From positions 8,714-72,713 of the forward strand of contig JAUCBJ010005384.1 of the NCBI GenBank assembly GCA_032718475.1: a DNA stretch of 64,000 bases, in the 5' to 3' direction. The stretch comes from Nemertoderma westbladi. Taxonomy: Eukaryota > Animalia > Xenacoelomorpha. A program made the translations under genes and the position numbers. Shown here in pieces: positions 1 through 58,430 of this stretch. The stretch's first letter is position 1. The number at the start of each line of letters is the position of its first letter. Below the pieces are notes generated by a model that was not told the origin of the DNA, did no database searches, and saw nothing but the letters and a program-made list of their open reading frames with translations.

Positions 1-1120
1 ACTGTACCTCGGCATTGGAAGTTTTGATTTCAGCCGATCAACATCAATATTTTAGCTCCAAACTCCAGGTACAGTATTGTCCTATGGTGATCAGCCATTG
101 ACCAAATCATCACCCTTGTGGAGGTTTCATCCTCATGTTTTTAATGGTTTATTAGTCATTGTGCCAAGATCCCGTGTTGCCAGCAACCTACCATTGCTTC
201 CTTCTAAGAGCCATTTAACTTATGTAGTAGTGATGCACACCCAACCCATATCATATTAGGTCATCTGGGGTATGATAGCACCCTTGGTAAAATTCGCTCT
301 CGCTTTTGGTTTCCTCGAGGCCGTTCACTGGTACGAAAGATAATATTGTCCTGGTTGTCATAGATATCGGGTACTTCCATACAATAGGGCAGAGTCAGCA
401 TTGAAACCATTTCGGACTCTACCAATTACTCCTTTCAGAACTTTGGGCATTGACTTCTTTGGCCCTCTCTATCTGAAGGATAGCGATATGAAAGCTCCAA
501 CCACTCTTATAGCTATCTGAAATTCATTGGGTCGCCTAGTTTGACCATTGATCAAAACAGAGATCCACTCAGATAATACAGAACACTTCGCAAATTATTA
601 GTGATGCGCCAACTCAATCGATTGGCGTTTTATTCCCGCTCGGATCCCAGAATGGGGTGGCTTCTATGAATGCCTTATCAGTATTATGACATTCTCCCTA
701 CGTTCTGTATGTCGGAAAGTTAAGTTGACCATGCATCAATTAGAAGCTGTGTTATGTGAAATTGAGGCTATTGTTAACCTCCAACCCTTCACTCCTATAT
801 CTGATGACCCAGAGACAACCCCATCAAGTTTCCTTTATGGACAATCACCAGCTGATATTGGTATTGAACTTTCTACTATTGACTCTCCTGCTTTACGGGG
901 TGCGTTGAAAGTGCGTGATAATACGATTGTCAGTTTTGGCGCCTGTTTTCGAAGCATTACCTGGAGAATTTGAGCACATGGCGCACCACTGGATCAAGTG
1001 GTACTTCGCCCACCTTGTGGGCTCTTGTCTTAGTTTAAAGTCGAGAACTAACCGCTCTATTATTTTTTGGAGGTTTCTACTCCAACTAAATCGCGGTTCG
1101 AATGACGGTGCTGTTTGATT
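1..1120 (+). mobile_element. Degenerate BEL/Pao LTR-retrotransposon integrase remnant
   Basis: Frameshifted fragments translate to Pao-type integrase motifs: GHLGYDSTLGKIRSRFWFPRGRSLVRKI, PFRTLGIDFFGPLYLK, WRFIPARIPEWGGFYE and LEAVLCEIEAIVNLQP. Many stops and frameshifts. Confidence 0.75.
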
Positions 1121-1211
1121 CTGTGGGATCAATAGAATATCAATAATAAAAAAAATCAGGGGCTAATAAAATGGCAGCTGGCTTTGAAATTAATACTCCA
1201 TATCTCAAGAA

Positions 1212-1272
1212 CCTGTGGCCTAGTGGTTGTTGTCTCGGCTTCCACCTCGAGGTCCGAGGTTCAAATCCGACA
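1212..1272 (+). promoter_or_regulatory. tRNA-derived Pol III head (A box and B box)
   Basis: A-box-like TGGCCTAGTGG (1216-1226) and B-box-like GGTTCAAATCC (1258-1268) at tRNA-like spacing. Not a clean cloverleaf. Confidence 0.7.
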
Positions 1273-1314
1273 CCACGCTGAAGATACTGAGTAAGGTCGA
1301 AACGCGTACGTGGT
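1272..1314 (+). ncRNA. Minimal type I hammerhead ribozyme
   Basis: ACCACG-CTGAAGA-T-ACT-gagtaa-GGT-C-GAAA-CGCG-TA-CGTGGT: 6-bp stem I, intact CUGANGA and GAAA core, short stem II, palindromic ACGCGT stem III and a GUA cleavage triplet (cut after 1308). Confidence 0.85.
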
Positions 1315-2025
1315 TTGGAGAGATATGAGATATTAATTTTAAGAAAAATTACGCGATTCCTAAATTTGTACACTACCCGGTTAAAAAGTACGCATGTGAT
1401 GGGATTAGTCCTACAATTGCGCCAATAAAAGATAAGTTATTTTCGGTAAAATAAACTTATCATTCGAGGTTAAGACCCCTAGATTCCTTCCTACTGATGC
1501 TTTTTGGCAGACTGTACAATAAGCCTCACCAACATTTCGATTTATAGTTATTATGTAACAAACAAAAGAAATTAGTCAATCATTTGGAAAGAAGTGTCTA
1601 ACGGTTTATAATGATATAACATTCCTTTGTTTTTAGGGGCTATTCCAAGATTATTAATTTATTAATAAGATGATTGGCATAAATCAATCCTTTCAATAGG
1701 GTAATTACTAATACATCTACATATATTTATTTATTTGGTTTTTTAATTATTCCTAATTTCCTTTGATTCGGAGTTACAACAAAGATATTTATTATTAGAA
1801 AGAAAGGCCTAACACAGCATCACTATCAAAATATTATTATCATTGGTCACTTATGACAAAACCTGAGCTGAAATGGAACTTAACATGTGTTCCAGATTTG
1901 ATTCATAAATCAAGGTTTATTTATCTAAAGTCTAAGATTTATCTATCAAACTTATTCTTTCCAAGTTATTGTCATTCCCATTTAATAAAAATATCCATCC
2001 AATTTATTGTCATTTGACTCACAGA

Positions 2026-4410
2026 ATGTTAAATGAATCAACTTCTCTTAACCAAACTCCAACAAATAGACTTCATGGATGGAGACTTACTGTGTTGGTG
2101 ATTATATTGATGACCTTTCTGTTAATACCAGGATGGGGCATGAACCTACTGGAATCATTTTTCCCTATCGTTGTAGAAAAGCGTGGCTGGTCTAAGACCC
2201 TCATTGGTTTGTTGTTTGCAATTTATCCCCTCGTCCAGGTTATTCTTTACATTGTTTTCCCACATTCCATCACCAACTGGGGATCGCGAATTTCTTTAGG
2301 AATATTTGGCGTCATAGGAACAACATCTCAGCTGCTTTTTGGATTTGTAGAATATATTCCCAACAACATGGGGCATATATTGACCTGTTTTTTGCTGCGA
2401 CTGATAATAGGAATTGGTTTAAACCAAGGCGATACCTAATACAGGCCATGACATGGGAGGCCTATGCAAAATTAGCGGAGGCCGACTTTGTAGAACCGTT
2501 AGGAACCATAGAAGTGCGTACCATTTGATTACCACATTTGATTACCTATCCTAACTTTTATCAGAGAATCTTTTAAGACAATTTTTGTTTTCAATAGTTT
2601 GCTACTTTTCCATGGGAGACCCATTATTTTTACGTTGACCGAAAAAAGGAGTTATTTGTAGAAAAAAATTTTCTCAGTTTATAGAGAGAGTTCATATACT
2701 GACTGGTATTATGATGTTTTTTAGAGTGCTAATTACATATTATAAGGTCACATACTCGTTGGTTAGGATACTTTCTTGCTTTTCAGCACCCCAAGTATTG
2801 CACGAAAAGTGCTGGAAGTCAAAAAATTTCATTAAAAATTAAAGTTAAATTTTCACATGAGATTTTGGTTTTTGAAGTTTTTGGCTGTTTGGAGTTGCTG
2901 AGTTCAATCGAATATGTTTCAAAATTATAAAGTGTCGGTTTTCAGATCCTAGACAAGACACGAAAAGTGCCTGTGACCACGCACGGATAAAATTTTTTCA
3001 TATATTAAATTAAGCTAATTGTGGAATTGACATATAATATTTAAATTAATAATGCAATAATAATAATTATAAGTTTTGAGTTGTGTAGGTTTCAGAACAT
3101 AAATTTCATCTTTTTCTTTGTGCTTTTGGCATCCAACGTTGTCATTTGCTGTTCACAATAATTGTTTAAAAATATATTTACAATTATGTTGCTCGCTTTC
3201 GTTGGGATGCTCCAAAGCCATATATGATTCCGAAAGAAATTCAATGGCTTTCCTTAGTCTCACGCGACACATTTTTGATAAGTCCACGCTTTGAATCCAA
3301 ATGTAACAATACACAATCAAATTGACAAGGTGATCTGAAGGATATTGCAACTTTCCTCTGTTCAGGAAACTAATAAAGTCCGTTACTACCGTACATGTTA
3401 CTACCGTACTACAGTACCGTACAACAGTCTGACAGTACAGTAAGTCAGTAAGTAGGTCGGCCTCCGCTAATTTTGCATAGGCCTCCCATGTCATGGCCTG
3501 TATTAGGTATCGCCTTGGTTTAAACGTATGTTACACTTACTCCTACAACTTATTAATGGAATTGATGCCAAACCACAGAAGCTTCTTAGCTGGAATATCT
3601 ATTGTAATTGCCGATGCGGGATATGCTATCGCGCCAGTATTTGGATCCTCTTTGTTCGCTTCCCTGGGTTTTGAATATCCATTTATCATATCGAGTTTGA
3701 TGTTTCTCTCTGGTGTTCTTTACTGCTGGTACGAGGCGCCTCCTTACCTTTACGATAGACATGAATCTAATGAGGAACGACCAACATATCTTGGATTGTT
3801 GAAGAACCCAGCAATTACAATAATCTATATTATCCACCTCTATTTTGCGATGACGGTATATTTTATATTGGCTTATTACGCCTCTTATATTCACAGCTAC
3901 TATCATGTCAATCAATATAATATTGGTTTAGCGTATACGATTCTGGAGGTGTCTAACTCATCTACAGGTTTCTTAGTAACTGTTTTGATTAAAAAGTTAA
4001 ATTTCAAGACAATTTACCCAACTGTTATTGGTGCAACGATACTGTTTGGTTCAATGCAACTAGTAGGGCCGACTGAGATACTTGGTTTACCTCACTCCTT
4101 AGCCCTGTCACTTAGTTCGATGGTCATCCTTGGATTGGGAGCTGGGATAATGCAGATTCCAGCGTTTGAAACACAAACTCGTCTGGCAGTGAGGGTCTGC
4201 GGTTTCCCTGACAATATTGATACCAGGGCTGTTCTCCAACAAGCCCTTAGAATTTCATTTTCCGTAGGTTTCTTACTGGGCGCCGTTATTGGCGGTATTC
4301 TAAATGATTATTTCGGATTCCAAATTGCTGCTTCACTTCTTAGTCTGATGATTTTGCCTTTTCTTATCACCCTAATAGCCTTACTCGCTTGTGGATATGT
4401 TGATCAGTAA
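2026..4410 (+). pseudogene. MFS transporter (SLC18B1-like) interrupted by a DNA transposon
   Basis: Two hydrophobic ORFs (2026-2424 and 3526-4410) join in frame (...RLIIGIGLN/VCYTYSY...) after removing 2425-3517 and one TSD copy, giving about 427 aa with an MFS-like multi-TM pattern. No introns needed. Confidence 0.8.
2425..3517 (-). mobile_element. Non-autonomous P-element-like DNA transposon
   Basis: 62-bp TIRs (CAAGGCGATACC... at 2425-2486 and 3456-3517) and 8-bp TSD GTTTAAAC (2417-2424, 3518-3525). Internal minus-strand remnant FISFLNRGKLQYPS resembles the P/THAP9 transposase C-terminus. Confidence 0.85.
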
Positions 4411-4806: not shown

Positions 4807-5510
4807 TTCTTGTGGGACTCTTGTTGTTCAGGGGTGGGTTGCTGGACGCGCTATTAGTGGAAAAGCGCTATTAGGATTAAAAGGGCTATTAGCACAAATA
4901 GTGCTATTAGTAAATAGCGACTTTAAAAAGCGTTGCCTGAAACATTATTAATAGCCCTTTTTACTAATAGGATTATTAGTGCTAATAGGGCTTCTTTAAT
5001 AGCGCTATTAGTAATTAAATAATAATAATACCATCTCGTCACTATAGCTCTATCACTATTTCTAGAATTCAAGTTTGAGTATTAAATATTAATTGTAAAA
5101 GATAAAGTCCCTACAAGTAGTCCACTCAATCGAGGAAAAAAGATGGGGGGGGGGGGGGGGGGGGGGGGGCAAACGTCTATCAAAACTAATTCGCTAAAAC
5201 TAAACTCCTTAACTTAAAATTAAAACTTTTATAACATAATGACAGCTATACTTTTGTGTTTAAAACTTGATTTATTTATTTACATCATTTCATACAAATT
5301 ATTTGTACTGTAGGCCTATGTATTACGGTCCTACAGTATTTCGATCTGCGTTCGAGCATAGAAATGTATAAAATTTGACTAGAAAATAAATTTTTCTGTC
5401 ACTAAAATTTGCGATAGGAAGGAAATATATTATGGGTCTTAGCTAAATTTACTGGACCAAATATACGAAAGGATATTCTCATTATACCACAGACTAACTT
5501 AGACATTAAG

Positions 5511-5629: not shown

Positions 5630-8290
5630 ATTTATTTATTTTTATTTATTTATATTCGTACATGGCAAATCAAATATATATATATGAATAATGCACAGTA
5701 CACCAATAATGAAAGTAATGGTTATATAACCTAGCACAAAAGTCTATATTAGGTAAGTAATATAATACCACTAAAATTAATAAGAGGAATGATTAACGCT
5801 TAATAAGATGATACGTAATTCACAATATCAAGTAACTCTGCTCTGGAGAAGCCTTCAACAGACATATTATCTCCGGCGAGTACATTACATAGATCCTTAC
5901 ATACACCAATTCGCCACAAGTTATCACTAGAAGTTCTAGAATATACCAACACAGACGAAACACATTTAGCATTTAGGTTAAATAAATTATCAATATTACA
6001 AACATTGGCAATGCGCCTTAGATTTAACCCAGTTCTCGTTCTACAATCAAATTCCGTTAGATTAGCTAACAAGCGAATGCACAATTTATTAGAAGCACGT
6101 AAACTCAATGTAAAAGATACGAATTGTTTACAAAGCATAACCCAAGGATGACAAAAATCTACTATATTCTCAACAATGAAACGGTGAGAATTAAACGGTA
6201 ATCCCCAAACCCGCCTAATATTTTTATTCCATGTAGTAAGTACTTGAGTGCATTGCGGTGACCACAAGTCCCACAGTGGGCTCCCATAAAAATTCATACA
6301 GTACAGACGTTGCACACGGGATAAGACACCTGGCGAATCGAAACTAAATTCCTGTCTCAGATAAGCCAGCTTCCCATAGACAATCACAATCCGGAAAATT
6401 CCGCTTAAAAATTAAAGATCCATGCTCCAACAAAAAATGTTCTTGTATACAAACTATTTGGCAACCGAGCAGAAGAGATTTAATAAACTCAATTTTATCT
6501 AATGCAAATCCTGTCGAGTTAATAGAGGAAATACAAAAATTTCCTATTGTGGTGTTATTTAGGATAGCCATTTCAAAAGAGTATATTTAAAGAAACACAT
6601 AAACAAATCCAATATAAATAATTATGAAACAAAATTAAACGCCCCGACTCACGACCCACGGTCGGCAACTGATCCTGCTCCGCCCCCGGTGATATTATTC
6701 ACGCCCCTGACAGTTTCAGTTGAGTTAGTAGGTCTGAAGTTACCTCCCGCTGGGCGCCCCGCATCGTTGTTGGAGGAATAGCGCCACCGACGAACGCAGA
6801 CACCCACAGGCCACGTTGTAGGGTTGAGGGCCGCTTCTAGGTCGTTCTGTTTAACCGTAATCTTAAAACTGGCAGTGCGAGCGAGCGAACTCGATTTAAG
6901 TTGCACATCCGCACCTGCAATTGCAATGTTGCGGCTTGACAACCACGAAACAATATCCTCAGGCGTGGTTGAATGAGTACACCTAAACATGAAGATGTCG
7001 CATGGCGCTGCTGATAGCCTGGAGCTACCAGCCCCTCCGTTGCCACCCCCAGCGTTGGCGGTCCCAACCACGAACGGTTGTCGACGCCGACGTCGATTTT
7101 CCACGAGCGTGTAACCCTCGTCTAACTCCGCTGGGTCAGACTCGACCCGTGGTCGCTTGGCGCTACCGGACCGACCGGGTGTCGATACTGCAGTAAGCGA
7201 TGGTCGTCGAGACAAATTAATTCTATTCAATGTACCGGTAGGAGCATTGGGCGGATGATTGGACTGCCCGGACGTTACAGAGCTACTGTATAACTGCCTG
7301 TTTAGTGACGGTGGTTGGGCCAATGTCATCGAAGGCATACCGGTAGCGGTCGGGACAGGCCTCCCGATACCTACTGGGATCCCGGACACAGAAGGGACAG
7401 AGACCACTGGCTGTGGAGGAAATGGACATGAAATTCTGTTAAGTTGAGACATTAAACGTGATTCTAGACTGCGTAATTGATTATCAACTGACTTCTGTAA
7501 GTCATCTATCTTATCATTAACCAGTTCCAACTGAGTTGTACGTTCTAACTCCGATACACCGCCGTCACGGCCCCCGGCACTCTGGTTGATTGAAGACGAC
7601 GTTATTTTAGGTAAACTCAATGCATCTAATGCTAGAACGGCAATAGTTGGCTGCTTACCAGCCAAATCCAACTCACTAAGATACTGAAAAGTATCCTTCA
7701 AATTAGCGAATGCTGCAGACCTTTCAGCCGTGTCACGTCCACGTCTATGTATAAGCTGACGATCGAAAGAACCAACCTTATTAAATAGCTCCAATTTCGC
7801 TCCCAGTATTTCCTCTGGTGTAAACCTTGAAAGAATCACTGTGGATGTAACGTCGAAAGTCGATGTGGACATCCCTTGCAACAATAACGCTAAGCACGAA
7901 TTTACTATGACTACCGGTACAGGTAAGTCGGCAGCACCATCAGTACTGCCTCTGCAAGGCAGATCTTCATTTCCCACATTACAGGTACTGATATCCATTG
8001 AGTCAGGCTCAGGACTAACTACAGGACCAGCTCCGCCGTCGACCTCTTGGCCTACCTCTCCATTATCAGATGGAGACAGACAGTCGTAATATCCCTCTTT
8101 ACCATTACCGTTAACAGTTCCCCTGCCAGACCTACGGGGACGAATCGCATCACCTCCTGCGGTATTACCGCTACCGCTACAGTTCCCTCCAGGCGCAGGC
8201 ATAGATATAGATCAGTATGCAGTCAGCAGTAGTGGAGGAGATGAGGAGAACCCGGCTGCCCGGAAGCGGCCCAAGCACTGAAATATTACA
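5630..8290 (-). mobile_element. Non-LTR retrotransposon with intact ORF1, internally deleted ORF2 and a (TAAA)n tail
   Basis: ORF1 at 6649-8202. ORF2 starts at 6571 with an APE N-terminus (SINSTGF...IVCIQEHFLL) and jumps directly to an ORF2 C-terminal region (YCMNFYGSPLWDL...WNKNIRRVWGLP). TAAA repeats near 5630-5655. Confidence 0.75.
6649..8202 (-). CDS. LINE ORF1 protein (517 aa)
   Basis: Coiled-coil middle region, basic RRRR stretch and C-terminal FKITV...ALNPTTWPVGVCVRRW motif typical of ORF1 in APE-type LINEs. Confidence 0.75.
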   Translation of the reverse strand: MPAPGGNCSGSGNTAGGDAIRPRRSGRGTVNGNGKEGYYDCLSPSDNGEVGQEVDGGAGPVVSPEPDSMDISTCNVGNEDLPCRGSTDGAADLPVPVVIVNSCLALLLQGMSTSTFDVTSTVILSRFTPEEILGAKLELFNKVGSFDRQLIHRRGRDTAERSAAFANLKDTFQYLSELDLAGKQPTIAVLALDALSLPKITSSSINQSAGGRDGGVSELERTTQLELVNDKIDDLQKSVDNQLRSLESRLMSQLNRISCPFPPQPVVSVPSVSGIPVGIGRPVPTATGMPSMTLAQPPSLNRQLYSSSVTSGQSNHPPNAPTGTLNRINLSRRPSLTAVSTPGRSGSAKRPRVESDPAELDEGYTLVENRRRRRQPFVVGTANAGGGNGGAGSSRLSAAPCDIFMFRCTHSTTPEDIVSWLSSRNIAIAGADVQLKSSSLARTASFKITVKQNDLEAALNPTTWPVGVCVRRWRYSSNNDAGRPAGGNFRPTNSTETVRGVNNITGGGAGSVADRGS

Positions 8291-15218: not shown

Positions 15219-15260
15219 GACCAAGCAGCAGCTTGGTCTAGTGGTGACATTCCTGGGCTT
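15219..15260 (+). mobile_element. 5' fragment of tRNA-derived SINE
   Basis: GACCAAGCAGCAGCTTGGTCTAGTGGTGACATTCCTGGGCTT is identical to the head of the SINE at 39047-39243. Confidence 0.7.
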
Positions 15261-15520
15261 CCAAATATACATATACAAATGCATATTCCAGATTATGATG
15301 CATTTATTAAATAGAATAAAATAGCCTCGCGCAGGTGCATAACCATGCAAAATTTGAACGCCCATATCTCAGCTATTTTTCAACGAAATTCAAATTGCGT
15401 TACATATTTGAAATCCTTGCAACAGTTTTCCATTGGTACCAACAAACAGCTATAAGGTAGAAGAATAACTGCGGTGTAACTATTGTAATATCGCTGGATA
15501 CACTTTTTTAAACGCTTGTA

Positions 15521-24777: not shown

Positions 24778-27075
24778 TCAGAAATATGATCTAATGACTA
24801 CGACTCCTGTGTTCTGTGGAAGGTCTTGTGCAGTTAGTATTAGCTCCTGATATTGCGGTAAGGATTGCAAATACGGTTCATTTGCGACGTGTGATGGAAC
24901 TACCGCCCAGAACCCATATCCTGCTTTAAATGGCAACCACCGCATTTGCGCCTGGATGTGGTAGTCAGCCACACCCTCCCACTTGTCTAACATCTCCCGG
25001 AGGAGGTTGGTACTATGATTCTTGAAAGAATCATCATGCAGTTGACATTTCGCACTACGGTGTCCCTTTACTCCACAATATCCAAACTGAGAAATGAAGA
25101 CGGTGCATATATGGAATGAATGGTCAGTCTCGTTGCACCAACGGCAAACCTTATGCGCCGCCTCTACTACAGCATCGCATGACTTTTGACTATGCCTTGT
25201 GCTGCCGCACAACTTGCATCTACGCGCTTGTGGAAACCAGGCCCTCTCGTATATGAGGTCTCCAATCGGCTTCGCACTCCCTTCCTTCCCAATGTCTAAA
25301 ACAATGTCGTCCTCTCCGGTCAAAGGTTGTCGATCCGGAACAAAGTAATCATCCTCAACTTTGTCCTCGATCTCCAATATTTCCTCTCGCATCCGTTTCG
25401 GATCAGTCTTCTCCACCGGGAGATCCATTCCGAACACCTCCCCTAACATCTCGGGCCAACCGTCTCTAATGGGTCTATCTGCCTCAAAGTGGACGGGAGT
25501 ACCAAACCCGCGGGTTTGATTCCCGAACCACTTCTCCAAGGCCTCTGGCGTCGGATACTCCATCAAAGGTCGGTCTCCCAAATCTCCGATGTTCTGTCGA
25601 TATACTCTTTCGAATATCGCTAATCCTTTCCTAACCATCGACGTGTTTTCAAGCGATTGGTTGAAGAACGGGGTTAAGAAACGCTTCATCACGTCGGATT
25701 GGATTCTTCTTTTCGAACGAACGTATTGATCTCCTCCAAACACCAATGGATGACGTTTCAGAACTCGCACAACGATATCTGCGACTAAACAAGTTACCGT
25801 GTTCGACTCCAGCACCAAATAATATTGCAGCGACGCACGGGGTGGCGCGCAGATGTTCCAATACACTAACGCTTGCCGCATGAAGTGGGATTTGAACTCC
25901 GCTCCCGGCGGCGTGTTATATTCACCGTACGCCTCCTCGTATTTCTTTTGCATCTTCAACTTGAAGTCCCAGTTGTACAACAAATGCGCTATAAAGCCCA
26001 TACCAGTCTTAGCAGAGCTTGGGTACTCCCTATAAATTCCAATATCCTGTGCCCATAGCAACAATAGTTTGGTGTCGACAAACGGTCTCGGCAATCGATC
26101 CTCCAAATCCGTCATGGCGTTGAAGTCACTCTCCAAATCACTTTGGACTCCTGATCCCACCTTGACGTAATCCTGGTTGAGAATCGCCTCTCTAACTTTC
26201 TTGGGTAACATCCTGGCGTTGATACGCTCCACTCTGTGCATACCCCCTCGCCTACATACCTCCAAGATCTGCTCCCTAGGATCCTTCCCTCGCCGATATT
26301 GTGTTGTTATGATGGGCTCCGGTCTCTCTTGGTCTGCCCTCACGCGCATAAATACGTGAGTCACGCCATCAGCTGCGCGAATTTGAATGCACTTGCTAGT
26401 TAGGCACTCTTGGTGGGACCCTCCCTCGTTGTCGTAGAACATTATGTGCCAATCCTGTAGGGATTCCTCCGTCTTTCTCCATTGACGCTGGATCTCATCG
26501 GATGGGGTCCACATGCGCTCGATAGCCCTGTGGTCATCATATTGGGTATAGGAACCCTTCCTCCTCAGCCACACCTGATCTACCTCCTCGTCGCCTGGGA
26601 ATGTAGCCACCACGACCCATACCTTTATATACTTCTCCAACCAACCAAATAACTTGCTCTCCTTCCCCGGAGCTCCGATCTTGTCTAACGTATCGTAATC
26701 CGTTATCTGCATTGGGACGTCACGCAAGAACTTCGCGCATAAAACTTCCCGTAGGCAGTCGACGTTCCAATGATCCGACAACGTCACCATCGGCAAGAAT
26801 CGAATGGCTTCTCGCGACTCCGGGTGATCTACCAATATCGCAGGTTCGTTGCCGTCGGAATAATACACTGGTTGGGGTTGAGATACAGCCTGTGGAACCA
26901 TTCCAGTCACTCTCCTAGTTTCCTCCTGATGTCTATCCGCCGTCTTATTATACTCCACTATCCGCTCTTCGAATAACTGCTTCGCTTTCGCCGCTCGCTC
27001 CTCCTGCCGCAACGAGTCTATATCGTCCTGATGCTCAGGCGTGAGCTTTCTCCCTCGGTGAGGCGAAGTGAACAT
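24778..27075 (-). CDS. Orphan 765-aa protein: putative DEDDy (WRN/EXD2-like) 3'-5' exonuclease plus C-terminal zinc knuckles
   Basis: Long uninterrupted ORF with motifs FYDNEG (ExoI), ILNQDYVKVGSGVQSD (ExoII-like), FVDT and QYYLVLE (ExoIII-like). Knuckles CKLCGSTRHSQKSC, CRWCNETDHSFHIC and a degenerate YCGVKGHRSAKC. Confidence 0.6.
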   Translation of the reverse strand: MFTSPHRGRKLTPEHQDDIDSLRQEERAAKAKQLFEERIVEYNKTADRHQEETRRVTGMVPQAVSQPQPVYYSDGNEPAILVDHPESREAIRFLPMVTLSDHWNVDCLREVLCAKFLRDVPMQITDYDTLDKIGAPGKESKLFGWLEKYIKVWVVVATFPGDEEVDQVWLRRKGSYTQYDDHRAIERMWTPSDEIQRQWRKTEESLQDWHIMFYDNEGGSHQECLTSKCIQIRAADGVTHVFMRVRADQERPEPIITTQYRRGKDPREQILEVCRRGGMHRVERINARMLPKKVREAILNQDYVKVGSGVQSDLESDFNAMTDLEDRLPRPFVDTKLLLLWAQDIGIYREYPSSAKTGMGFIAHLLYNWDFKLKMQKKYEEAYGEYNTPPGAEFKSHFMRQALVYWNICAPPRASLQYYLVLESNTVTCLVADIVVRVLKRHPLVFGGDQYVRSKRRIQSDVMKRFLTPFFNQSLENTSMVRKGLAIFERVYRQNIGDLGDRPLMEYPTPEALEKWFGNQTRGFGTPVHFEADRPIRDGWPEMLGEVFGMDLPVEKTDPKRMREEILEIEDKVEDDYFVPDRQPLTGEDDIVLDIGKEGSAKPIGDLIYERAWFPQARRCKLCGSTRHSQKSCDAVVEAAHKVCRWCNETDHSFHICTVFISQFGYCGVKGHRSAKCQLHDDSFKNHSTNLLREMLDKWEGVADYHIQAQMRWLPFKAGYGFWAVVPSHVANEPYLQSLPQYQELILTAQDLPQNTGVVVIRSYF

Positions 27076-29695
27076 GGTTCAGGGACTCGAGAGTTCCAAA
27101 CTTGCGGGTTTCGTACTCGAGTCCCATGCCGCTTCGCGCCGCACCTCTAGGTCCTTATAGGCTCGGTAAAGCGAAATGGCCGCCACCGTTTCTATCAAGA
27201 CGGGTGTCGAACAGGGTTTAATCTCCGTATATGGATCTAAAGTCGTAACGTCGGCATAATGGGTCTCAGAGGTCTCTTTCCGCTAAATTCGATACTGATC
27301 ATCGGGTTGCTCATCGGGTAACCTCCCTCGTTATATCTAAGAAACTGGTGAGCTTGACATCGCGTTAATATCGGCTCAGGATTCTGCTCGTTCAGTCAAT
27401 CGGGAATCGCTACGTCTTGCTTATTCATGCATTCGCCGCATTTGTAGAACAACTTGTATACACTTAAAACCTTTGGCGTCTCCTGATCCTCGCCTCGAGT
27501 CCTCCGGTAAAGATGCATTCCATCGAATTAATCCCGGACTGCAGGTAGCGGTTCATCGTGCCGTAAATACATGTTCATATGATATAGACGGGCGATTTCC
27601 TCGTCAGGGTCGCGCTAATGTCGCACACATCAAGAGCAAAATCGTAGGGATAACGAGTGCGATACTCCCTTCGTAGAACCTCCATGCGGTCTCCCAACGC
27701 TCGCATCCGTTCCCTCCTCAACTCCTTCTCGTACGTGGGGTTATACTTCCCATTCAACTCCATTACCGATCTCCCGTGGTAGTAAACATTGGAATCCTTA
27801 CACCCATGTCGGGCGAATGGTAGTTCTGCTTCCTCTCTGGTGGTGAAACCTCTCCTCGGTTGTGCTCTAATTTCCTTCTCCATATTGCCGCGTATATATA
27901 CATAATTAGTAACTAATAGTAACTAATTACACTGTGGGTAAGTCAGTTAGATGATGCGGAGGGACAAACTTCCCGAGCTACCCGGCCGCCTTCCAGCAGT
28001 TGAGGTTCGGCTTTCTAGATCCCGTCTCATTCCTAACTACCTTCTTTGATGCCCAAGCTACTCCCCAATACTTGTACTAGACTACAGTAGTTAGAAAGGA
28101 CAATAGTTTTGGCGCTCGACTATACCAAACCCACAGGTTTGATAATCGAACACCTCACTCCACTGCAAACTACTGAGTGGGGTCTGTGTACGCCTCTGGT
28201 GCTACTAACCTTTAGCACCTTGGTTGTTGTACTGTTTGCACCAATCTGTGGAAGTTACTGAACTCAATTTACACTCCTACATAATATAGCCGTCACCATA
28301 GTGTCGAGATACTATTTTCCAGGCTTCACGACTTTCAAATTACTGTACATCTATAGACGAATTCTAGAACGCGTCTATATGCAGCGTTTGGAATTGTTTT
28401 GGGTTCACTTCTAATATTAAAATTTTTGATTTTCCAAACATTTTATGAAAAAATTTAATTTTTGTTTTGATACCCACCAGACAAATTCTCAACACAAATC
28501 ACCACAAACCCGCTCCTATGCATTTCCTAGTATTTGCATACGAGGAATGCATACGAAGTGAATTTTTGTTCTAACACTAATTTTGGTTTGAGGCAGAAGA
28601 CAAATTATAGTCTCCTGTCTCGATGCGTGTCTCCCACGTCCAATCAGGACGTGGGTATTATACCATTCCTTACCGAACCTGTCAACACAGGGTCGTCGGA
28701 AGACGAATGCGATCTAACAGCGAATGTTTCCATCGGTAGCGACGATTTCCTCCCCCTCCATCATTCGTCTTCGTCTCACGCACAAACTTCTACACCGGAT
28801 GAGGAGGACCCCGAACTAACGGGAAACATAAACTCATTCACCTCCGATTTACCAGCCTACCCACCCCAGAGCCTAGCGTTCAACTGGAATGGAATTCTGG
28901 GCGAATGCTTCGAGTCTCGAGTAAAGAAGGCATATGATGAAGTGGTTCACTGGGGATCGCATCTGTTTGAGGTTCCTTGCACACAGGTAGGTCGGCAATT
29001 CATCTGCACGATCACCAGACTGTTGAAGGCTTTCAGTGAGAAATCAAATCTGGAGGGTGTGGCTATGATTGCACCAAAACTCCTACTACACGCGGCGGTA
29101 AAGACTCCAGAAGGTTTTGGTTCTTCGGGAAGCATTAGCCAAACACTCAGGAGAAGGTTGGAACTCTGGAACGCCAGAGAGATCAGCGCCTTGGTAGAGG
29201 AAGGAAGGGCGATTCAGGCCCGGAGGGGTGGCAACCATTCCGTCAGAACGGACGCTGATAAACCCAGGAGGGATTTTGTATCAAGGATGAACACAGGTCA
29301 GATCGCCGCAGCGGTGGATTTATTAACAAATGGAAAGGGAGGTTCAGTCACAGACACGGTTGGGGTAAAACAGTTAAGGATATTCTGAGGGAGAAAAACC
29401 CTGCACCAGCAACCGTGGACCCATCACTAATCAAAACCTCATGGGAAGACAGTTTGAGTTTCCACCCAACCATTTTCGATGCGATTAGGGGTGAGGCGAT
29501 CCTGTCTGCCTCCCTATACACACAGGGAACGCCCAGACCATCTGGTGTAGACGCTGATGGGTGGAGGCGAATGTTGATGGCTTTTGGAAAAACCTCAAAC
29601 TATCTCAGAAACGCGGTGGCCGCAGTTGCGCAACGTCTCGCTACTGAATATATCGATCCCAATAGCATGTTCGGATTCAATGCCTGTCGTCTGGT

Positions 29696-30892: not shown

Positions 30893-31912
30893 CTGGTACC
30901 ACTAGACAAAACGCCAGGTGTGCGGCCCATCGGCGTGGGTGAAGTCTTGAGAAGAATCATTGGAAAATCGGTAATGAACTGTGTTTGGGTTGATTTAGAA
31001 AAAATGGCAGGCAACACCCAGTTGTGTGTGGGGCAACTTGGGGGAATTGAGCATGCCATTCACGCCTTGCGCGACACCTACAACACACCTGAATGTGAGG
31101 GAATTTTACTTTTGGATGCAACAAATGCCTTTCAATGCTCTGAACAGACATCTCACACTGCTAAATGTTGAATACGTATGCCCCGCTTTGCAAACTGTCC
31201 TTGTGAATACTAATAGGGAACCAACCCCCTATTTGTGGCAAACGAGGTTATGTGGTCGGAGGATGGCTCAACCCAGGGGGACCCACTAGCTATGGCAATG
31301 TACGGAATTGGAACGTTTCCTATGGTAAAGAAACTTGGTGAAACCGGGACACAAACTCCCCCAACAATCACAGCAGACTCACAGGGTTGTCAGCAAACCA
31401 CGGTACCGGTACACCTAGGAGGCGTACAGCAACCCACGGCACACACAGGGAGCGGGCAGCAGCTCACGGTACACCCAGGGGTCGGTCAGCAACCCACGGT
31501 ACACCCAGGGGTTGGATAGCAACTCACGGTACACACAGGGGGCGGACAGCAACCCACGGTACACCTAGGGGGTGGACAGCAACCCATGGTACACACAGGG
31601 GGTGGTCAGCAAACCACGGTACACCCAGGGGGCGGACAGCAACCCACGGTACACCCAGGGGGTGGACAGCAACCCATGGTACACACAGGGGGTGGAATGC
31701 AACTCACGGAATACCCAAGGGTTGGACAGCAACCCACGGTACACCTAGGGGGTGGACAGCAACCCACGGTACACACAGGGGCGGTCAGCAAACCACGGTA
31801 CACCGAGGGGGCGGACAGCAAACCACGGTACACCCAGGGGGCGGACAGCAACCCACGGTACACCCAGGGGGTGGACAGCAACCCGCGGTACACACTTGGG
31901 GTGGACTGCAAC

Positions 31913-34248
31913 CAGTGCCGGATTAACATTAAGGCATATAAGGCACGTGCCTTAGGGCCAGCCGAAAATCCGGGCCATTTTTTCTCAGCGAGTCATTCCT
32001 GTGAAAAAAATATTTTTATCTGAAAAGTCCGGAAACAGAGCAAGAAAGTGCATCTTTCGACTACTTGTCTACTTCCTATCACTAGATTTGTGATAGAAAG
32101 TGCAAAATTCTAGCTCAGTCAACCGACAGGTGCTGTGTTATTAGTTCGAGACCTGATGGCAGGGAAATAATAAAACATGGGCAGTAATACTTTAAAGTGC
32201 TAATTACAGTATGAACAATGGAGAATTTAATTTTATTTATTTATGGGGAAATATTTGTAGTTATGCTCTTAAACTTTCTAGAACAACCAAATAATGACAT
32301 ACTGGAAATAATGTACATAGTAAATGTATGGCGTGGAGATATGGTAGTGAGAAATTAAATTTTTTTTACCGGAAACTAGTTTTATAAATAAATATAGCCT
32401 ACAGTAGGTAAAAAATAGATAAAAAAAAGGATAAATTAGTTGTAGATAAAATAGTTGTTGATAAAAAAAAAACGTGTCAGAAATAACTTCCTGTCACTAC
32501 TGTAATTTTATTTAACCGAAATTCAGATATTCTGCCCTCGTTTATTGAATTTTGCATTCGATCCCATTTTAGGTGCAATTCAAAAACTTTTGGACAGCAC
32601 AATTGAATTGGGGTAAATTAAAATTAGCGACAAAAAGTGCTTATTTCCGAGACTGTTCTCTTATCGAAGAACATTACTTTCTCAGCAAGTCCAAATATAG
32701 ATCAAAAATATTATATCTTTGCACTAAGCCCACACTTTTGGTGTATTATATTTCTCAGCCTGTAAAGATAAAGTACCCTGCGAAAGTAAAAAAAAGTAAA
32801 TTTTCTTCGGCCGCTAGGCCAGGGATTACGCACAAAGTCTGACGACTTATTTCCAGTGCGGCCCCCCAGAACTTTACTCCCCAGAGGAAACTCTAGTACT
32901 CATTTAGCTACCACTTAAGGATGCAAGACAGAGATGCGCCCGCCCTGGCTGGTCCCTTTAAAGCAGTCGTGCCGAAACGAAAACTGCCCTGGTCCATGTG
33001 AGGATCGAAGCCACGACCTCCAGGAGATGTGAATTCAATGCAACCACTTCACCAAGGTGGAACCTACAGCAAATAAATAACACATTCCCACGATTCGATC
33101 AAAATTGCTAAATGCCTACAGGAGCCAGTCAGCCTTAAGGGGGCCAACTATAACCCACACAGAAATGAATTTTTCGAAAATTTACACAATTTTTTGTAGT
33201 TTGATAGAAGGGCTTTCATAAGGTGATGTCGGTTTTCAACATTGAATTATTTTTTTACTTCAAAACTGCTCTTTTCAACAACATAATATTATATTGCTGA
33301 TATTTATGATTCTCTGTATAAAACAACCTTTTTATCAGTTCGTTGATTTTGACTTTTTTCATCTCTAAATTACCTACTACATATATACTATTTTATTTTT
33401 TACTCAACTGTCATCCAACATACAAAAATGTTCAGCAGCTTTAGGTATACTATCGTTGGTTTTGTAAAACATGGCCATTTGGATCTTCTAGAACCGATTT
33501 TGTAACTGCTACACTTTGTCTATCACTAAATATTTGATTCCAAAAATATAGCCCGGAAATACTAAAACCCCCCATAAATTTTCAAAAGCAATAATTTTGT
33601 GCTAAAATTATCATAGAAGATAGCCTACATTTTTACGTCCATTTTACCAAAGTCTTGCACCAAGAACTTCAATGCAGTATGACAGATCCTTAAATGAGCT
33701 AATTAATATATAAATGCCGCAAATTTATAGAATTTTTGAAGAAAAAACCGACCTTCTCAAAAAGTGCCATATTTTTCGAACAAACGGTTTATGAAGTTAC
33801 TGTATCTATACTCAGTTTTAATAGTATATATAAGATCACAGATAATTGTATTAAAGTTTCAGAATAGTAGCTTTATAAATAAAACAAATAGATTTGGAGT
33901 AATGGTCCCATTAATATATTAAAAATTAAAGCTTGAGAAATTCTACCAAAACCATTACACATTTTATAGCAAAGGTTTTATAGGCATATTCCGTTTAGTA
34001 AATGTTAAAAATTCTTGATGAAAACTATTTTTGCGAAGTACTTATTATTAAAGTTTTAAGTACTTATTTGCACGCAGTAATCCGACGAAAATAATTTATA
34101 TTTCCTTCGCAACATTTTCACATTTTCAGTTGTTTTTTTTAGCAGCTTTTTCCTTTGAAAGGGTTTGCGGAAAAATATCAATTTTCGGGCCATTTTTGGA
34201 AATTACTAAAATGTGCCTTAGGGCCACCAGAGGCTTAATCCGGCACTG
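31913..34248. mobile_element. hAT-type non-autonomous DNA transposon
   Basis: 14-bp TIRs CAGTGCCGGATTAA / TTAATCCGGCACTG and 8-bp TSD ACTGCAAC. Subterminal GTGCCTTAGGGCCA occurs near both ends. Confidence 0.9.
32830..33060 (-). mobile_element. tRNA-derived SINE
   Basis: Minus-strand A box TGGTGAAGTGG and B box GGCTTCGATCC, followed by a body with CATCCTTAAGTGGTAGCTAAATGAGTAC. Confidence 0.65.
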
Positions 34249-35943: not shown

Positions 35944-36543
35944 CTACTAGGATCGGCATGCTGCATTGCAGCTGCATTTTTAAGAATGCTGTGCCGGCTT
36001 GTCAACAAAATTGCACCGCCACAACTCCCTATCACCCATGACATTTGCTAGATCATCCGCATCTTTAAGGCCAGTGTCCTTTAAGATGCGTTTCAAGAAA
36101 GTCATTGGCTGTCCACCATGCTTATTCACTCCATGAGGCTGCCAAAGTACAAGATTATGCACTGGCTGGTCCTCACGGCGAAAGCAATGTCCTGCAAAGC
36201 GGAGGCGATTTTGTTCTAGTGTCAAGCTTGGGGGAACCAATGAGACACCTCCAATGTTATATAGTGTCTGGTTGGAGATGTGTGCATTATACTTGACACA
36301 ATGGACCCGGCGTAGCATTCTTGTGAATGTGCCATCCAGAGATTTGGTGTCCTCAGCAGTTAGAGCCCAGCATGGACTCCCGTAGAGGAGTACTGGAACT
36401 ACTGCTGCTCTAAATAATCGGACCTTAAGTTTCCGATTAATTCTCGGTGACTTCCAAATCCTGGAAAGCCTATTCAAGGCTGCCCATGCCTTTCCCTTAT
36501 GTATTCGAAGGTCCTCACCTGACTTCCGGATCCATGATCCCAG
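35944..36543 (-). mobile_element. 5'-truncated RTE-clade LINE inserted in the minisatellite
   Basis: Open 165-aa ORF2 C-terminus (35980-36477) with TAG tail. Same family as 14104-14696. Confidence 0.85.
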
Positions 36544-39046: not shown

Positions 39047-39243
39047 GTAAACCCTTCCACTCTGATTCCCAAGTTGCCTTGGTTCCCATTTATCGACCAC
39101 TGAAGGATGAAAGCCAGGTTTGGGTTAGGCTGCAGCATTTAAAGCACTGTGCCCAAACAGTGCTGCCCCATCTAGGGAACGAACCAGTGCCTCCTGATTG
39201 AAAGCCCAGGAATGTCACCACTAGACCAAGCTGCTGCTTGGTC
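39047..39243 (-). mobile_element. tRNA-derived SINE
   Basis: Minus-strand A box TGGTCTAGTGG and B box GGTTCGTTCCC, with central CTTTCATCCTTCAGTGGTCGATAAATGGGAACC. Confidence 0.7.
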
Positions 39244-58386: not shown

Positions 58387-58430
58387 ACTCGGTACCTAGG
58401 TTTCAAACTTCCGGTTATCATCAACCGAGT
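58387..58430 (-). ncRNA. Minimal type I hammerhead ribozyme, C3U variant
   Basis: Identical to 58756-58799 except core TTGATGA (position 58424). Confidence 0.75.

What the first reader, a model, noticed from the sequence alone, without database searches (positions are those of the whole stretch)
1187..1339. Second, unrelated tRNA-head plus hammerhead unit closed by a 20-bp flanking helix
Seen: A box (1216-1226) and B box (1258-1268) are followed at once by a minimal hammerhead (1272-1314; CUGAAGA, palindromic ACGCGU, GUA). AAATTAATACTCCATATCTC (1187-1206) can pair with GAGATATGAGATATTAATTT (1320-1339) to enclose the unit. Established: the order promoter-then-hammerhead resembles Sm-alpha. Inference: this genome has at least two independent Pol III-hammerhead families with different topology, both using GUA sites and a mismatched first pair in stem II.
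Basis: partly seen in the sequence, partly recalled or inferred. Interest (0 to 1): 0.72.

Follow-up and report, generated by a model that had tools for sequence, protein, structure and literature searches.

The report
Decayed copy of tRNA-hammerhead repeat
This stretch is one mutated copy of a very abundant non-coding repeat of an animal genome that joins a tRNA-like piece to a hammerhead ribozyme motif, a design known from blood-fluke Sm-alpha elements; the ribozyme in this copy is probably dead, and self-cutting and spread by copying through RNA are predicted and untested.

Summary
The A box (1216-1226), B box (1258-1268), a type-I hammerhead (1272-1314, GUA 1306-1308) and an imperfect 23-nt inverted repeat (1184-1206 / 1320-1342) are all present, and the repeat exceeds chance (1 of 2000 flank shuffles).

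The 153-nt "unit" is not the mobile unit. Contigs of three DNA runs show that 1138-1493 as a whole is a very high-copy repeat. Summed depth is 10^5-10^6 against about 25-90 in the flanks in run X1, and 2308 contigs were laid.

The window copy differs from the family majority at eight places, and four of them damage the ribozyme. The majority has CUGAUGA and a canonical 4-bp helix II (GACC/GGUC). So the "mismatched first pair of stem II" is private to this copy.

The family hammerhead is the canonical metazoan type-I form with a 2-bp palindromic helix III, which is expected to need dimers.

The closest known kinds are the Sm-alpha/Sj-alpha SINE-like hammerhead retroposons and the animal non-LTR retrozymes.

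At least about 50 nt of family sequence, including the left helix arm, lies upstream of the expected Pol III start. The simple "own promoter plus closed unit" model therefore does not fit.

A second, unrelated tRNA/hammerhead family at 58.3-58.85 kb is also high-copy.

Verdict: a new member of a known kind, of moderate interest.

The parts
1138..1493 (+). This locus's copy of the high-copy repeat family. It is solitary and differs from the family majority at 8 substitutions. It probably lacks about 15-20 nt at the 5' end and the TAATAAA/A-rich 3' end seen in other copies.
   Evidence: summed contig depth is 1.5e5-8.2e5 (X1), 1.1e5-5.8e5 (X3) and 0.9e3-6.6e3 (X5) over 1140-1499. The flanks read about 24-244 (X1) and 32-77 (X3). 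Loose ends at 1138/1145 and at 1483/1493 show what other copies carry beyond these points. Only one copy lies in the window. Fold: -93.6 kcal/mol, z = -2.99.
1184..1206 (+). Left arm of the internal inverted repeat (the 'closing helix').
   Evidence: It pairs in the MFE of the whole element, with 23 pairs between 1183-1206 and 1320-1343. No variant at 10% or more in the family.
1320..1342 (+). Right arm of the internal inverted repeat. The family majority has C at 1340, which turns the G1186.U1340 wobble into a G-C pair.
1213..1279 (+). Degenerate tRNA-like module. It has a 5-bp acceptor-like stem (1214-1218 with 1273-1277), a 5-bp anticodon stem, an 8-nt loop with 'tcca', and weak D and T arms.
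   Evidence: ARAGORN finds it only at -ps80 and finds nothing at default settings.
1216..1226 (+). A box, TGGCCTAGTGG.
   Evidence: The consensus TRGCNNAGTGG is recalled general knowledge.
1258..1268 (+). B box, GGTTCAAATCC. The family majority has the canonical GGTTCGAATCC (1263 A>G).
1272..1314 (+). Type-I hammerhead motif. Helix I is 1272-1277 with 1309-1314. The core CUGAAGA is at 1278-1284. Helix II is 1285-1288 with 1295-1298 and here reads U.C, A-U, C-G, U.G. GAAA is at 1299-1302. Helix III is A1302-U1307 and C1303-G1306 around the GC centre of the palindrome ACGCGU. H17 is A1308, so the predicted cut lies between 1308 and 1309.
   Evidence: Control hammerheads L001 and L002 get Rfam HH9 hits of 27-28 bits; this copy gets none.
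1428..1464 (+). Hairpin in the 3' body. It is the best inverted repeat of the element and holds a TTTT run at 1440-1443.
1154..1164 (+). 5'-proximal strand that pairs with about 1470-1483 in the predicted fold, so the two ends of the element are brought together.
   Evidence: 11 pairs between 1150-1169 and 1465-1490.

Best explanation
Positions 1138-1493 are one solitary, mutated copy of a very abundant non-coding repeat of about 360-375 nt, and the family likely spreads as an Sm-alpha-like SINE/retrozyme-type retroposon.

Shown:
- The repeat carries, in its middle, a degenerate tRNA-like module with A and B boxes.
- The 3' acceptor strand of that module (CCACG, 1273-1277) is at the same time the 5' strand of helix I of a type-I hammerhead.
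- The family majority has an intact core (CUGAUGA), a 6-bp helix I, a 4-bp helix II with a 6-nt loop, and a 2-bp helix III on the palindrome ACGCGU.
- This copy carries four private changes in and next to helix II.

Inferred:
- In intact members the A/B boxes would recruit Pol III.
- The hammerhead would cut after GUA (equivalent to 1308), mainly when two copies pair through the palindromic helix III. This would trim multimeric or read-through transcripts.
- The RNA would fold into the self-paired form that includes the 23-bp internal helix.
- A borrowed reverse transcriptase (from a Penelope-like element or a LINE) would insert cDNA copies.
- The window copy is predicted to be a non-cleaving relic.
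For: 1. High copy number with sharp ends. On window 900-1600, 2308 contigs (X1), 805 (X3) and 50 (X5) were laid. Summed depth rises from tens to 10^5-10^6 only between about 1140 and 1499. A 441-nt contig of X4 spans 1138-1493.
2. Majority letters, X1 figures: 1282 A>T (254,710 of 254,796), 1285 T>G (254,736 of 254,796), 1288 T>C (253,933 of 254,796), 1289 G>C (254,796 of 254,796), 1263 A>G (216,401 of 216,523), 1256 G>C, 1231 T>A, 1340 T>C. These restore CUGAUGA, G10.1-C11.1, C10.4-G11.4 and the canonical B box.
3. The hammerhead secondary structure scores -1.6 kcal/mol in the window copy and is not its MFE. In the majority version it scores -6.7 kcal/mol, and helices I (6 of 6 pairs) and II (4 of 4 pairs) are part of the MFE of the whole element.
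4. Covariation. Over the window copy and two metagenome hammerheads with the same helix III (L001, L002), 32 of 33 pair cells are standard pairs and 5 of 11 pairs change on both sides. The single unpaired cell is this copy's 10.1/11.1.
5. L002 also carries a tRNA-like A/B-box module about 25 nt upstream of its hammerhead.
6. The helix dimensions match the 'canonical metazoan type-I HHR': helix I 6 bp, helix II 4 bp, helix III 1-2 bp with a 2-4-nt palindromic loop, active as dimers (PMC4209133 passages).
7. Sm-alpha is described as a promoter followed by a hammerhead, apparently Pol III-transcribed, cleaving multimeric transcripts in cis or trans (PMC6765202 passages). It has a tRNA-like head and more than 10,000 copies (PMC2770079 passages).
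8. The element is predicted to be strongly self-paired: z = -2.99 for the whole element and z = -4.2 for the core.
Against: 1. The family sequence begins at least about 50 nt upstream of the start site expected from the A box, and about 20 nt more in other copies (loose ends). A TTTT run lies at 1440-1443, before the 3' end. A transcript from the element's own Pol III promoter would therefore lack the 5' leader, the left helix arm and perhaps the last 50 nt. The retroposed RNA must start elsewhere.
2. This locus is a single unit. Only a few single-contig 'goes back' joints (for example 1408->1151) were seen among the listed joints. The tandem arrangement described for Sm-alpha and retrozymes is thus not shown for this family.
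3. No target-site duplication was found at this copy.
4. No Penelope-like RT or GIY-YIG domain was found in the window's long ORFs: 16 of the 57 ORFs of 120 aa or more were scanned at E<=0.001, and 7 of those 16 were re-scanned at E<=1.
5. Rfam gives no hit to this copy even at E<=10. The control hammerheads reach only 27-28 bits against a gathering score of 52.
6. Cleavage, Pol III transcription and retroposition were not tested.
7. L001 and L002 were fetched with a motif that fixed the core and 3 of the 4 helix II pairs. Only helix I and pair 10.2/11.2 are free evidence.
8. Copy number comes from summed contig depth, which the tool says is not a copy number.
Confidence: 0.68

Rival explanations
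1. Promoter-independent retrozyme. The family would be a Penelope-dependent non-LTR retrozyme whose RNA is made by read-through or from tandem neighbours. It would be cut by hammerheads at two sites, joined into a circle by a tRNA ligase, and copied from the circle. The tRNA-like piece would be a structural remnant or a handle for tRNA enzymes, not the promoter. The internal helix would be part of the rod-like circle.
For: - The family sequence and the left helix arm lie upstream of the expected Pol III start.
- The two ends of the element pair with each other and the whole RNA is strongly self-paired, as described for retrozyme circRNAs (PMC7229834 sections 13 and 14).
- The size of about 356-375 nt is within the 170-400 nt given there.
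- 'Opposite strands' and 'goes back' joints exist among family contigs. Partial tandems and inverted copies are typical of Penelope-like insertions (PMC8557442 passages).
Against: - Copies share fixed ends at about 1138-1145 and 1483-1493, with the cleavage site in the middle. Ends at the cleavage site, or permuted ends, would be expected from circle-derived copies.
- This locus is one unit with one hammerhead.
- The canonical A and B boxes are kept in the majority, which suggests they matter.
- The review states that retrozymes seem to have no promoters (PMC7761336 passages), so this family would be atypical either way.
Confidence: 0.2
2. Miniature inverted-repeat DNA transposon. The 20-23-nt arms would be terminal inverted repeats that bound a 153-nt mobile unit.
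For: A significant inverted repeat flanks the tRNA-like/hammerhead core.
Against: - The repeat family runs at the same very high depth well beyond both arms, from 1140 to 1499.
- Contigs bridge the outer edges of the arms: the X4 contig covers 1138-1493, and X1 and X3 pieces cover 1230-1346/1354 and 1299-1460/1471.
- No TSD lies next to the arms.
Confidence: 0.02
3. Chance co-occurrence of short motifs in single-copy DNA.
For: - Rfam and default ARAGORN do not recognise the copy.
- Only one copy is in the window.
Against: - Very high copy number in three DNA runs from three studies.
- The majority restores the canonical hammerhead and B box.
- The motif combinations are expected 0.05-0.11 times per window.
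Confidence: 0.01
4. Exapted host element. The copy would serve as a regulatory or RNA gene about 540 bp upstream of the start codon of the MFS transporter gene (ORF 1936-2439).
For: Its position between a decayed integrase pseudogene (250-1020) and the MFS exons.
Against: - The copy carries private mutations that weaken the ribozyme and the B box.
- There is nothing locus-specific about it.
Confidence: 0.03

Closest known systems
Sm-alpha / Sj-alpha SINE-like hammerhead retroposons of Schistosoma (Ferbeyre et al. 1998 and Laha et al. 2000, as summarised in PMC6765202 and PMC2770079; the original papers are not held)
   Same: - tRNA-type A/B-box module followed directly by a type-I hammerhead.
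- Unit of a few hundred nt.
- Very high copy number.
- Short helix III.
- Non-coding.
   Different: - Sequence relatedness could not be tested, because no Sm-alpha sequence was at hand.
- The tRNA-like part looks Gly(UCC)-like with an 8-nt loop, whereas Sm-alpha is Gln-TTG-like (PMC2770079).
- The module sits about 75-95 nt inside the repeat, not at its start.
- Most evidence here points to dispersed single units, not arrays.
- A 23-bp internal helix brackets the tRNA-like/hammerhead core.
- The organism is unknown.
Metazoan non-LTR retrozymes (Cervera & de la Pena 2020, PMC7229834; review PMC7761336; Li, Clavereau & Pollet 2026 preprint, doi 10.64898/2026.07.22.740005)
   Same: - Type-I hammerhead.
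- Unit size in the 170-400 nt range.
- GC below 50%.
- Predicted highly self-paired RNA.
- Thousands of copies.
- A Penelope-like element is a plausible partner.
   Different: - The locus is a single unit with one hammerhead.
- Copies have fixed ends that are not at the cleavage site.
- The family carries a tRNA-type promoter module, whereas the review says retrozymes seem to harbour no promoters.
- Circular RNA is not shown.
Minimal hammerheads in pseudo-LTRs of Penelope-like elements (Cervera & de la Pena 2014, PMC4209133)
   Same: Palindromic helix III, implying a dimeric active form. Dispersed single motifs.
   Different: - PLE min-HHRs have a long helix II (7-8 bp), a short helix I (4-5 bp) and an extra nucleotide before 10.1.
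- This family has 6-bp, 4-bp and 2-bp helices, the 'canonical' type.
- No PLE ORF lies nearby.
Ordinary tRNA-derived SINEs
   Same: A and B boxes, non-coding, and an A-rich/AATAAA 3' end in other copies.
   Different: - The tRNA-like part is not at the 5' end.
- The element holds a ribozyme.
- No TSD is seen at this copy.
- No LINE-like tail was identified.

Membership tests
Hammerhead ribozyme, type I | Conserved core: C3U4G5A6N7G8A9, G12A13A14, A15.1-U16.1, and H17 at the cleavage site. | tested here: met
   CUGAAGA 1278-1284, GAAA 1299-1302, U1307, A1308. N7 = A in this copy and U in the majority.
Hammerhead ribozyme, type I | Three helices, with helix I open and the G10.1-C11.1 pair. | tested here: inconclusive
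   Helix I has 6 of 6 pairs and helix III has 2 bp on a palindrome. Helix II in this copy is U.C, A-U, C-G, U.G. The family majority has 4 of 4 pairs including G-C at 10.1/11.1.
Hammerhead ribozyme, type I | Match to the Rfam hammerhead clan models. | tested here: not met
   No hit at gathering score, at E<=10 on 1100-1420 or at E<=1 on the whole window. Intact look-alikes L001 and L002 score 27-28 bits (HH9, E about 1e-4), below the gathering score of 52.
Hammerhead ribozyme, type I | Self-cleavage 3' of H17. | not testable with these tools
   Needs in vitro transcription of monomer and dimer constructs.
Sm-alpha-like SINE hammerhead retroposon | tRNA-type Pol III promoter boxes directly upstream of the hammerhead. 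| tested here: met
   A box 1216-1226 and B box 1258-1268, with helix I starting at 1272. The feature is described in PMC6765202.
Sm-alpha-like SINE hammerhead retroposon | High-copy dispersed or tandem repeat of a few hundred nt. | tested here: met
   (depth, and 2308/805/50 contigs laid). A tandem arrangement is not shown.
Sm-alpha-like SINE hammerhead retroposon | Sequence homology to Sm-alpha/Sj-alpha. | not tested
   No Sm-alpha sequence was available from any tool, and Ferbeyre 1998 is not held.
Sm-alpha-like SINE hammerhead retroposon | Pol III transcription and multimeric transcripts cut to unit length. | not testable with these tools
   No RNA evidence was obtainable.
Metazoan non-LTR retrozyme | Head-to-tail repeats, each with a type-I hammerhead. 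| tested here: not met
   One unit and one hammerhead at this locus. Only rare single-contig 'goes back' joints were seen in the family.
Metazoan non-LTR retrozyme | Self-paired RNA of 170-400 nt, expressed as circles. | tested here: inconclusive
   Size and predicted self-pairing fit. Circles cannot be tested here.
tRNA-derived SINE | tRNA-related head at the 5' end of the element, A-rich or LINE-like 3' end, and TSDs. | tested here: not met
   At least 50-75 nt of family sequence precedes the A box. There is no TSD. Other copies end in TAATAAA and A-rich sequence.
MITE (DNA transposon) | Terminal inverted repeats at the ends of the mobile unit, with TSDs. | tested here: not met
   The family extends beyond both arms.

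The most novel reading that the evidence does not exclude
tRNA-like modules are selected, recurrent partners of type-I hammerheads in animal retrozyme-like retroposons, not accidents.

This one genome holds two unrelated high-copy families that fuse the two parts in different ways:
- a hammerhead welded to the tRNA's 3' acceptor strand;
- a hammerhead nested in the anticodon position.

An unrelated metagenome contig repeats the first design.

In the first design the same five nucleotides (CCACG) can close either the tRNA-like acceptor stem or hammerhead helix I. The fusion would then act as a folding switch that gates self-cleavage. The tRNA mimicry could also supply Pol III transcription, or recruit tRNA-processing and tRNA-ligase enzymes, to otherwise promoter-less retrozymes.
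Probability: 0.15. Interest if true: 0.7.

Novelty: new member of a known kind. Interest (0 to 1): 0.38.

Why it matters
Apart from the schistosome Sm-alpha/Sj-alpha elements, the papers I could read describe animal hammerhead repeats as promoter-less (PMC7761336). Here a very abundant family outside that description joins a tRNA-type promoter module to a canonical type-I hammerhead. A second, unrelated tRNA/hammerhead chimera lies in the same 64 kb.

If the boxes work, they would answer how at least some retrozyme-like repeats are transcribed. If they do not, the repeated tRNA mimicry needs another explanation.

For annotation, the practical point is that this locus is a dead copy. The real unit is about 2.4 times longer than the reported one.

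Tried and rejected
- Whole genome: none is held for this window, so no genome-wide copy set, consensus, subfamilies, TSD survey or partner search was possible.
- Collection scans for other copies:
  - The 24-mer 1290-1313 gave 0 hits in metagenome contigs, 0 in genome contigs and 0 in viral contigs.
  - A degenerate hammerhead motif gave 2 metagenome loci and 0 in genome contigs.
- RNA evidence: no RNA holder was listed by the look-up of sequencing runs. X4 is only guessed to be RNA, so its 441-nt contig says nothing about expression.
- Read laying used contigs only, so no molecule starts or ends could be read (table 6: none).
- Papers:
  - Ferbeyre 1998 (PMC108972) and Lunse 2017 (PMC5785218) are not held.
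  - The supplement of PMC7229834, which may hold mussel and other retrozyme sequences, is too large to read.
  - Supplements of the 2026 preprint were not seen.
  - A full-text search for four 12-nt motifs of the hammerhead found only unrelated primers.
  - Searches for papers joining hammerhead, SINE and tRNA or Pol III gave only the schistosome case and reviews. This is no proof that the family is undescribed; Repbase and Dfam could not be searched.
- Taxon: the protein atlas look-up of the UAA transporter ORF gave only 'Eukaryota, commonest Arthropoda'. The organism stays unknown.
- Statistics: a self-duplex shuffle test timed out. When re-run it was uninformative, because long bulged duplexes dominate (12 of 200 shuffles scored at least as well). 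It was replaced by local-alignment tests.
- In the whole-element alignment test the best inverted repeat is the hairpin 1428-1464, not the closing helix.
- The sigma-70/terminator scan is irrelevant to a eukaryote.
- No TSD was found.
- No Penelope-like domains were found in the window ORFs that were scanned.
- L002 has no comparable closing helix (score 5.5). The helix is therefore family-specific and not part of the shared design.
Full report
**1. What is in the sequence**

- TGGCCTAGTGG at 1216-1226 fits the type-2 Pol III A box. The consensus TRGCNNAGTGG is recalled.
- GGTTCAAATCC at 1258-1268 fits the B box.
- Four bases later a type-I hammerhead begins.
  - Helix I: ACCACG (1272-1277) with CGTGGT (1309-1314).
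  - Core: CUGAAGA (1278-1284).
  - Helix II region: 1285-1298.
  - GAAA: 1299-1302.
  - Helix III: A1302-U1307 and C1303-G1306, on the palindrome ACGCGU.
  - GUA: 1306-1308, so the predicted cut lies between 1308 and 1309.

The motif combinations are rare.
- CTGANGA-N6-30-CGAAAC occurs once in 64 kb, against 0.11 expected.
- AGTGG-N25-45-GTTCRANNCC occurs once, against 0.05 expected.

The flanking inverted repeat is real.
- It is best drawn as 1184-1206 with 1320-1342: 21 matches, one G.T and two single-base bulges.
- The duplex energy is -19.7 kcal/mol.
- Only 1 of 2000 shuffles of the two 60-nt flanks reaches its score.
- The 153-nt stretch folds with z = -4.2.

Standard detectors do not see this copy.
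- Rfam gives nothing at gathering score, nothing at E<=10 on 1100-1420 and nothing at E<=1 on the whole window.
- ARAGORN finds no tRNA at default settings.
- At a relaxed threshold it draws a degenerate cloverleaf at 1213-1279 with an 8-nt anticodon loop holding 'tcca'.

**2. It is a copy of a very abundant, longer repeat**

No genome is held for the window. I therefore looked for public runs that hold 1100-1420 and laid the contigs of four of them on 900-1600.

In three DNA runs of one coded organism, from three studies, summed contig depth behaves as follows.
- X1: tens in the flanks (about 24-244), rising to 1.5e5-8.2e5 between about 1140 and 1499.
- X3: 32-77 in the flanks, rising to 1.1e5-5.8e5.
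- X5: 0 in the flanks, rising to 0.9e3-6.6e3.
- Contigs laid: 2308 (X1), 805 (X3) and 50 (X5).

The tool warns that summed depth is not a copy number. The contrast of three to four orders of magnitude still leaves no doubt that 1138-1493 belongs to a very high-copy family.

Contigs bridge the outer edges of both helix arms.
- The X4 contig covers 1138-1493.
- X1 and X3 pieces cover 1230-1346/1354 and 1299-1460/1471.

So the arms are internal to the repeat and are not its ends.

Loose ends show what other copies carry beyond this copy's limits.
- Upstream of 1138/1145 they continue for about 20 conserved bases.
- Beyond 1483/1493 they carry TAATAAA and then A/T-rich, poorly agreeing sequence.

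This copy is thus slightly cut or diverged at both ends, and the full unit is about 375 nt. Only one copy lies in the window. No target-site duplication is visible.

**3. This copy is decayed**

One search lists eight places where nearly all family depth reads another letter than the window:
- 1231 T>A
- 1256 G>C
- 1263 A>G
- 1282 A>T
- 1285 T>G
- 1288 T>C
- 1289 G>C
- 1340 T>C

For example, in X1 254,710 of 254,796 read T at 1282. The remainder of about 86 is of the order of the flank depth, so the window's letters are probably those of this locus alone.

The majority therefore has:
- the canonical B box GGTTCGAATCC;
- CUGAUGA;
- a helix II of G-C, A-U, C-G, C-G closed by a 6-nt loop.

The window copy has U.C, A-U, C-G, U.G.

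I applied the majority letters by coordinate in a script, without printing the sequence.
- The hammerhead secondary structure improves from -1.6 to -6.7 kcal/mol.
- In the majority version, helices I (6 of 6 pairs) and II (4 of 4 pairs) belong to the MFE of the whole element.
- In the window copy, helix II is lost (0 of 4 pairs).

Consequences:
- The copy is predicted to cleave poorly or not at all.
- Seven of the eight private changes fall within 1231-1289. I have no explanation for this clustering.

**4. Kind of hammerhead**

The family has a helix I of 6 bp, a helix II of 4 bp and a helix III of 2 bp on a palindrome.

This is exactly what Cervera and de la Pena call the canonical metazoan type-I hammerhead. 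Its weak helix III makes it work as a dimer (PMC4209133 passages).

It is not their PLE-type minimal form, which has a long helix II, a short helix I and an extra base before 10.1.

**5. Relatives elsewhere**

The family-specific 24-mer found nothing in the metagenome, prokaryote-genome and viral collections. A degenerate motif for this kind of hammerhead found two metagenome loci.

- Both loci get sub-threshold Rfam hammerhead hits (HH9, 27-28 bits, E about 1e-4). This serves as a positive control for the silence on the window copy.
- L002 carries a tRNA-like stretch with A and B boxes about 25 nt upstream of its hammerhead. It resembles the window's module in the T-arm region.
- L001 shows no such head.

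Over the three sequences:
- 32 of 33 hammerhead pair cells are standard pairs.
- 5 of 11 pairs change on both sides.
- Slid controls give 21-36% of cells paired.
- The only unpaired cell is this copy's 10.1/11.1.

Caveat: the search motif fixed the core and three helix II pairs. Only helix I and pair 10.2/11.2 are independent evidence.

L002 has no comparable flanking helix.

**6. Anatomy and likely working**

The tRNA-like acceptor stem (1214-1218 with 1273-1277) and hammerhead helix I (1272-1277 with 1309-1314) use the same CCACG. The ribozyme is therefore welded to the 3' acceptor strand, and the two folds exclude each other. In the predicted MFE helix I wins.

The whole element is predicted to be strongly self-paired (-93.6 kcal/mol, z = -2.99). 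The fold contains:
- the 23-bp internal helix;
- a hairpin at 1428-1464;
- pairing between about 1154-1164 and about 1470-1483, which brings the two ends together.

The closest described system is Sm-alpha.
- It is a promoter followed by a hammerhead and is apparently transcribed by Pol III.
- The ribozyme frees units from multimeric transcripts in cis or trans.
- Single copies are unable to propagate (PMC6765202 passages).
- It has a tRNA-like head and more than 10,000 copies (PMC2770079).

I take the same scheme as the most likely one here. Four observations count against a simple transfer.
- At least about 50 nt of family sequence, including the left helix arm, lies upstream of the start site expected 10-20 nt before the A box (recalled rule).
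- A TTTT run lies at 1440-1443, inside the element.
- Copies have fixed ends that are not at the cleavage site.
- Arrays are not evident.

The retroposed RNA therefore starts upstream of the element's own promoter. The closing helix can form only in such longer RNAs.

The retrozyme reading is the main rival: read-through transcription, cleavage, ligation to a circle, and a Penelope partner (PMC7229834 sections 13 and 14; PMC7761336; preprint abstract and passages).

No Penelope-like domains were found among the ORFs scanned in the window: 16 of the 57 ORFs of 120 aa or more, of which 7 were re-scanned at E<=1.

**7. Surroundings**

- Upstream (250-1020, + strand) lies a stop-ridden integrase-like pseudogene.
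- Downstream lie exons of an MFS transporter (1936-2439 and 3481-4410).
- The window also holds LTR retroelements and an intronless UAA-transporter ORF.
- The organism is a eukaryote, evidently an animal-type genome. The atlas look-up gave no finer placement.

**8. The second family**

On the minus strand, a 168-nt unit occurs twice, 369 nt apart: 58311-58478 and 58680-58847, with one difference, C>T in the core of the lower copy.

- It is a tRNA-like shell: acceptor GCCCTGG.../...GGGGC, an A-box-like TAGCTCAGTGG and a T-loop GTTCGAGCCCC. ARAGORN detects it only with -i -ps80.
- A hammerhead sits where the anticodon arm should be: core at 58793-58787, palindrome ACCUAGGU, GUA at 58764-58762.
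- It is also high-copy, up to 2.0e5 against 284 in the flanks in X1.
- A contig in X1 (side 153) and one in X5 (side 21) join 58312 directly to 58848. This is an empty site lacking the 535-bp block.
- The family majority has C-G where both window copies have U-A at helix I pair 58797/58758. This is consistent with a compensatory change, but it is unphased.
- Its U.U at 10.1/11.1 is not contradicted by the majority.

The shared 'mismatch' does not.

**9. Novelty and verdict**

In my searches of the held library, papers joining a tRNA-type promoter and a hammerhead in a repeat concerned only schistosomes. The retrozyme review says such elements seem to lack promoters. I could not search Repbase or Dfam or name the organism, so the family may already be catalogued.

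Earlier notes of this scan report a similar 'tRNA-promoter retrozyme family' in another genome (e1-9924037). That note is a lead only.

I file the finding as a new member of a known kind. It is a real, abundant Sm-alpha-like tRNA/hammerhead retroposon family, seen here as a dead solitary copy. The welded acceptor/helix I strand and the internal helix are family-specific features.

Interest is moderate (0.38). The bolder reading, that tRNA mimicry is a selected partner of animal hammerhead repeats, remains open at about 0.15.

Noticed in passing
window 58311-58847 (- strand): Second tRNA-like/hammerhead family. A 168-nt unit occurs twice, 369 nt apart, and the hammerhead (core 58793-58787, GUA 58764-58762) is nested in the anticodon position of a tRNA-like shell. 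The family is high-copy. Contigs in X1 and X5 join 58312 to 58848, an empty site lacking the 535-bp block. The majority shows a C-G for U-A change at a helix I pair. The lower copy has T for C3 in the core.
   Followed up: partly
L002 312-445 (metagenome contig): An unrelated environmental contig carries a tRNA-like A/B-box module about 25 nt upstream of a type-I hammerhead with the same ACGCGUA helix III. Upstream lie about 60-nt tandem repeats (L002 60-240).
   Followed up: partly
window 1231-1289: Seven of the eight private substitutions of this copy cluster in 59 nt (the tRNA-like 3' half and helix II). Only one lies in the other 297 nt. The cause is unknown.
   Followed up: no
window 1290 (loose ends): Some family-related contigs (12 in X1, 8 in X3) share the hammerhead 3' half but have another upstream sequence without the tRNA-like strand. 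This may be a relative or partner element from which the ribozyme and body were taken.
   Followed up: no
window 15219-15264 and 39198-39243: An inverted pair (98% complementary) of another tRNA-head-like repeat (GCTTGGTCTAGTGG...GGGCTTCCAA), probably a further SINE family.
   Followed up: no
window 31300-32000 and 34150-37300: Long arrays of a 30-nt minisatellite, with 74-96 aligned copies.
   Followed up: no
window 63327-63403: A near-perfect long hairpin gives sub-threshold hits to several miRNA-precursor models on both strands (38 bits, E 5e-5). It lies in a region of nested inverted repeats (63093-63999) and is probably a MITE-like palindrome.
   Followed up: no
window 24778-27078 (-), 6649-8211 (-), 56001-57530 (+): Long open frames of 766, 520 and 509 aa have no Pfam match even at E<=1.
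   Followed up: partly
window 1095-1104: A B-box-like GGTTCGAAT lies just upstream of the element in low-copy sequence. Depth rises to about 244 at 1068-1091 in X1. It may be a fragment of another tRNA-related repeat.
   Followed up: no
window 5145-5170, 38473, 49800-49945, 62850: Long poly-G/poly-C runs lie at several repeat borders.
   Followed up: no
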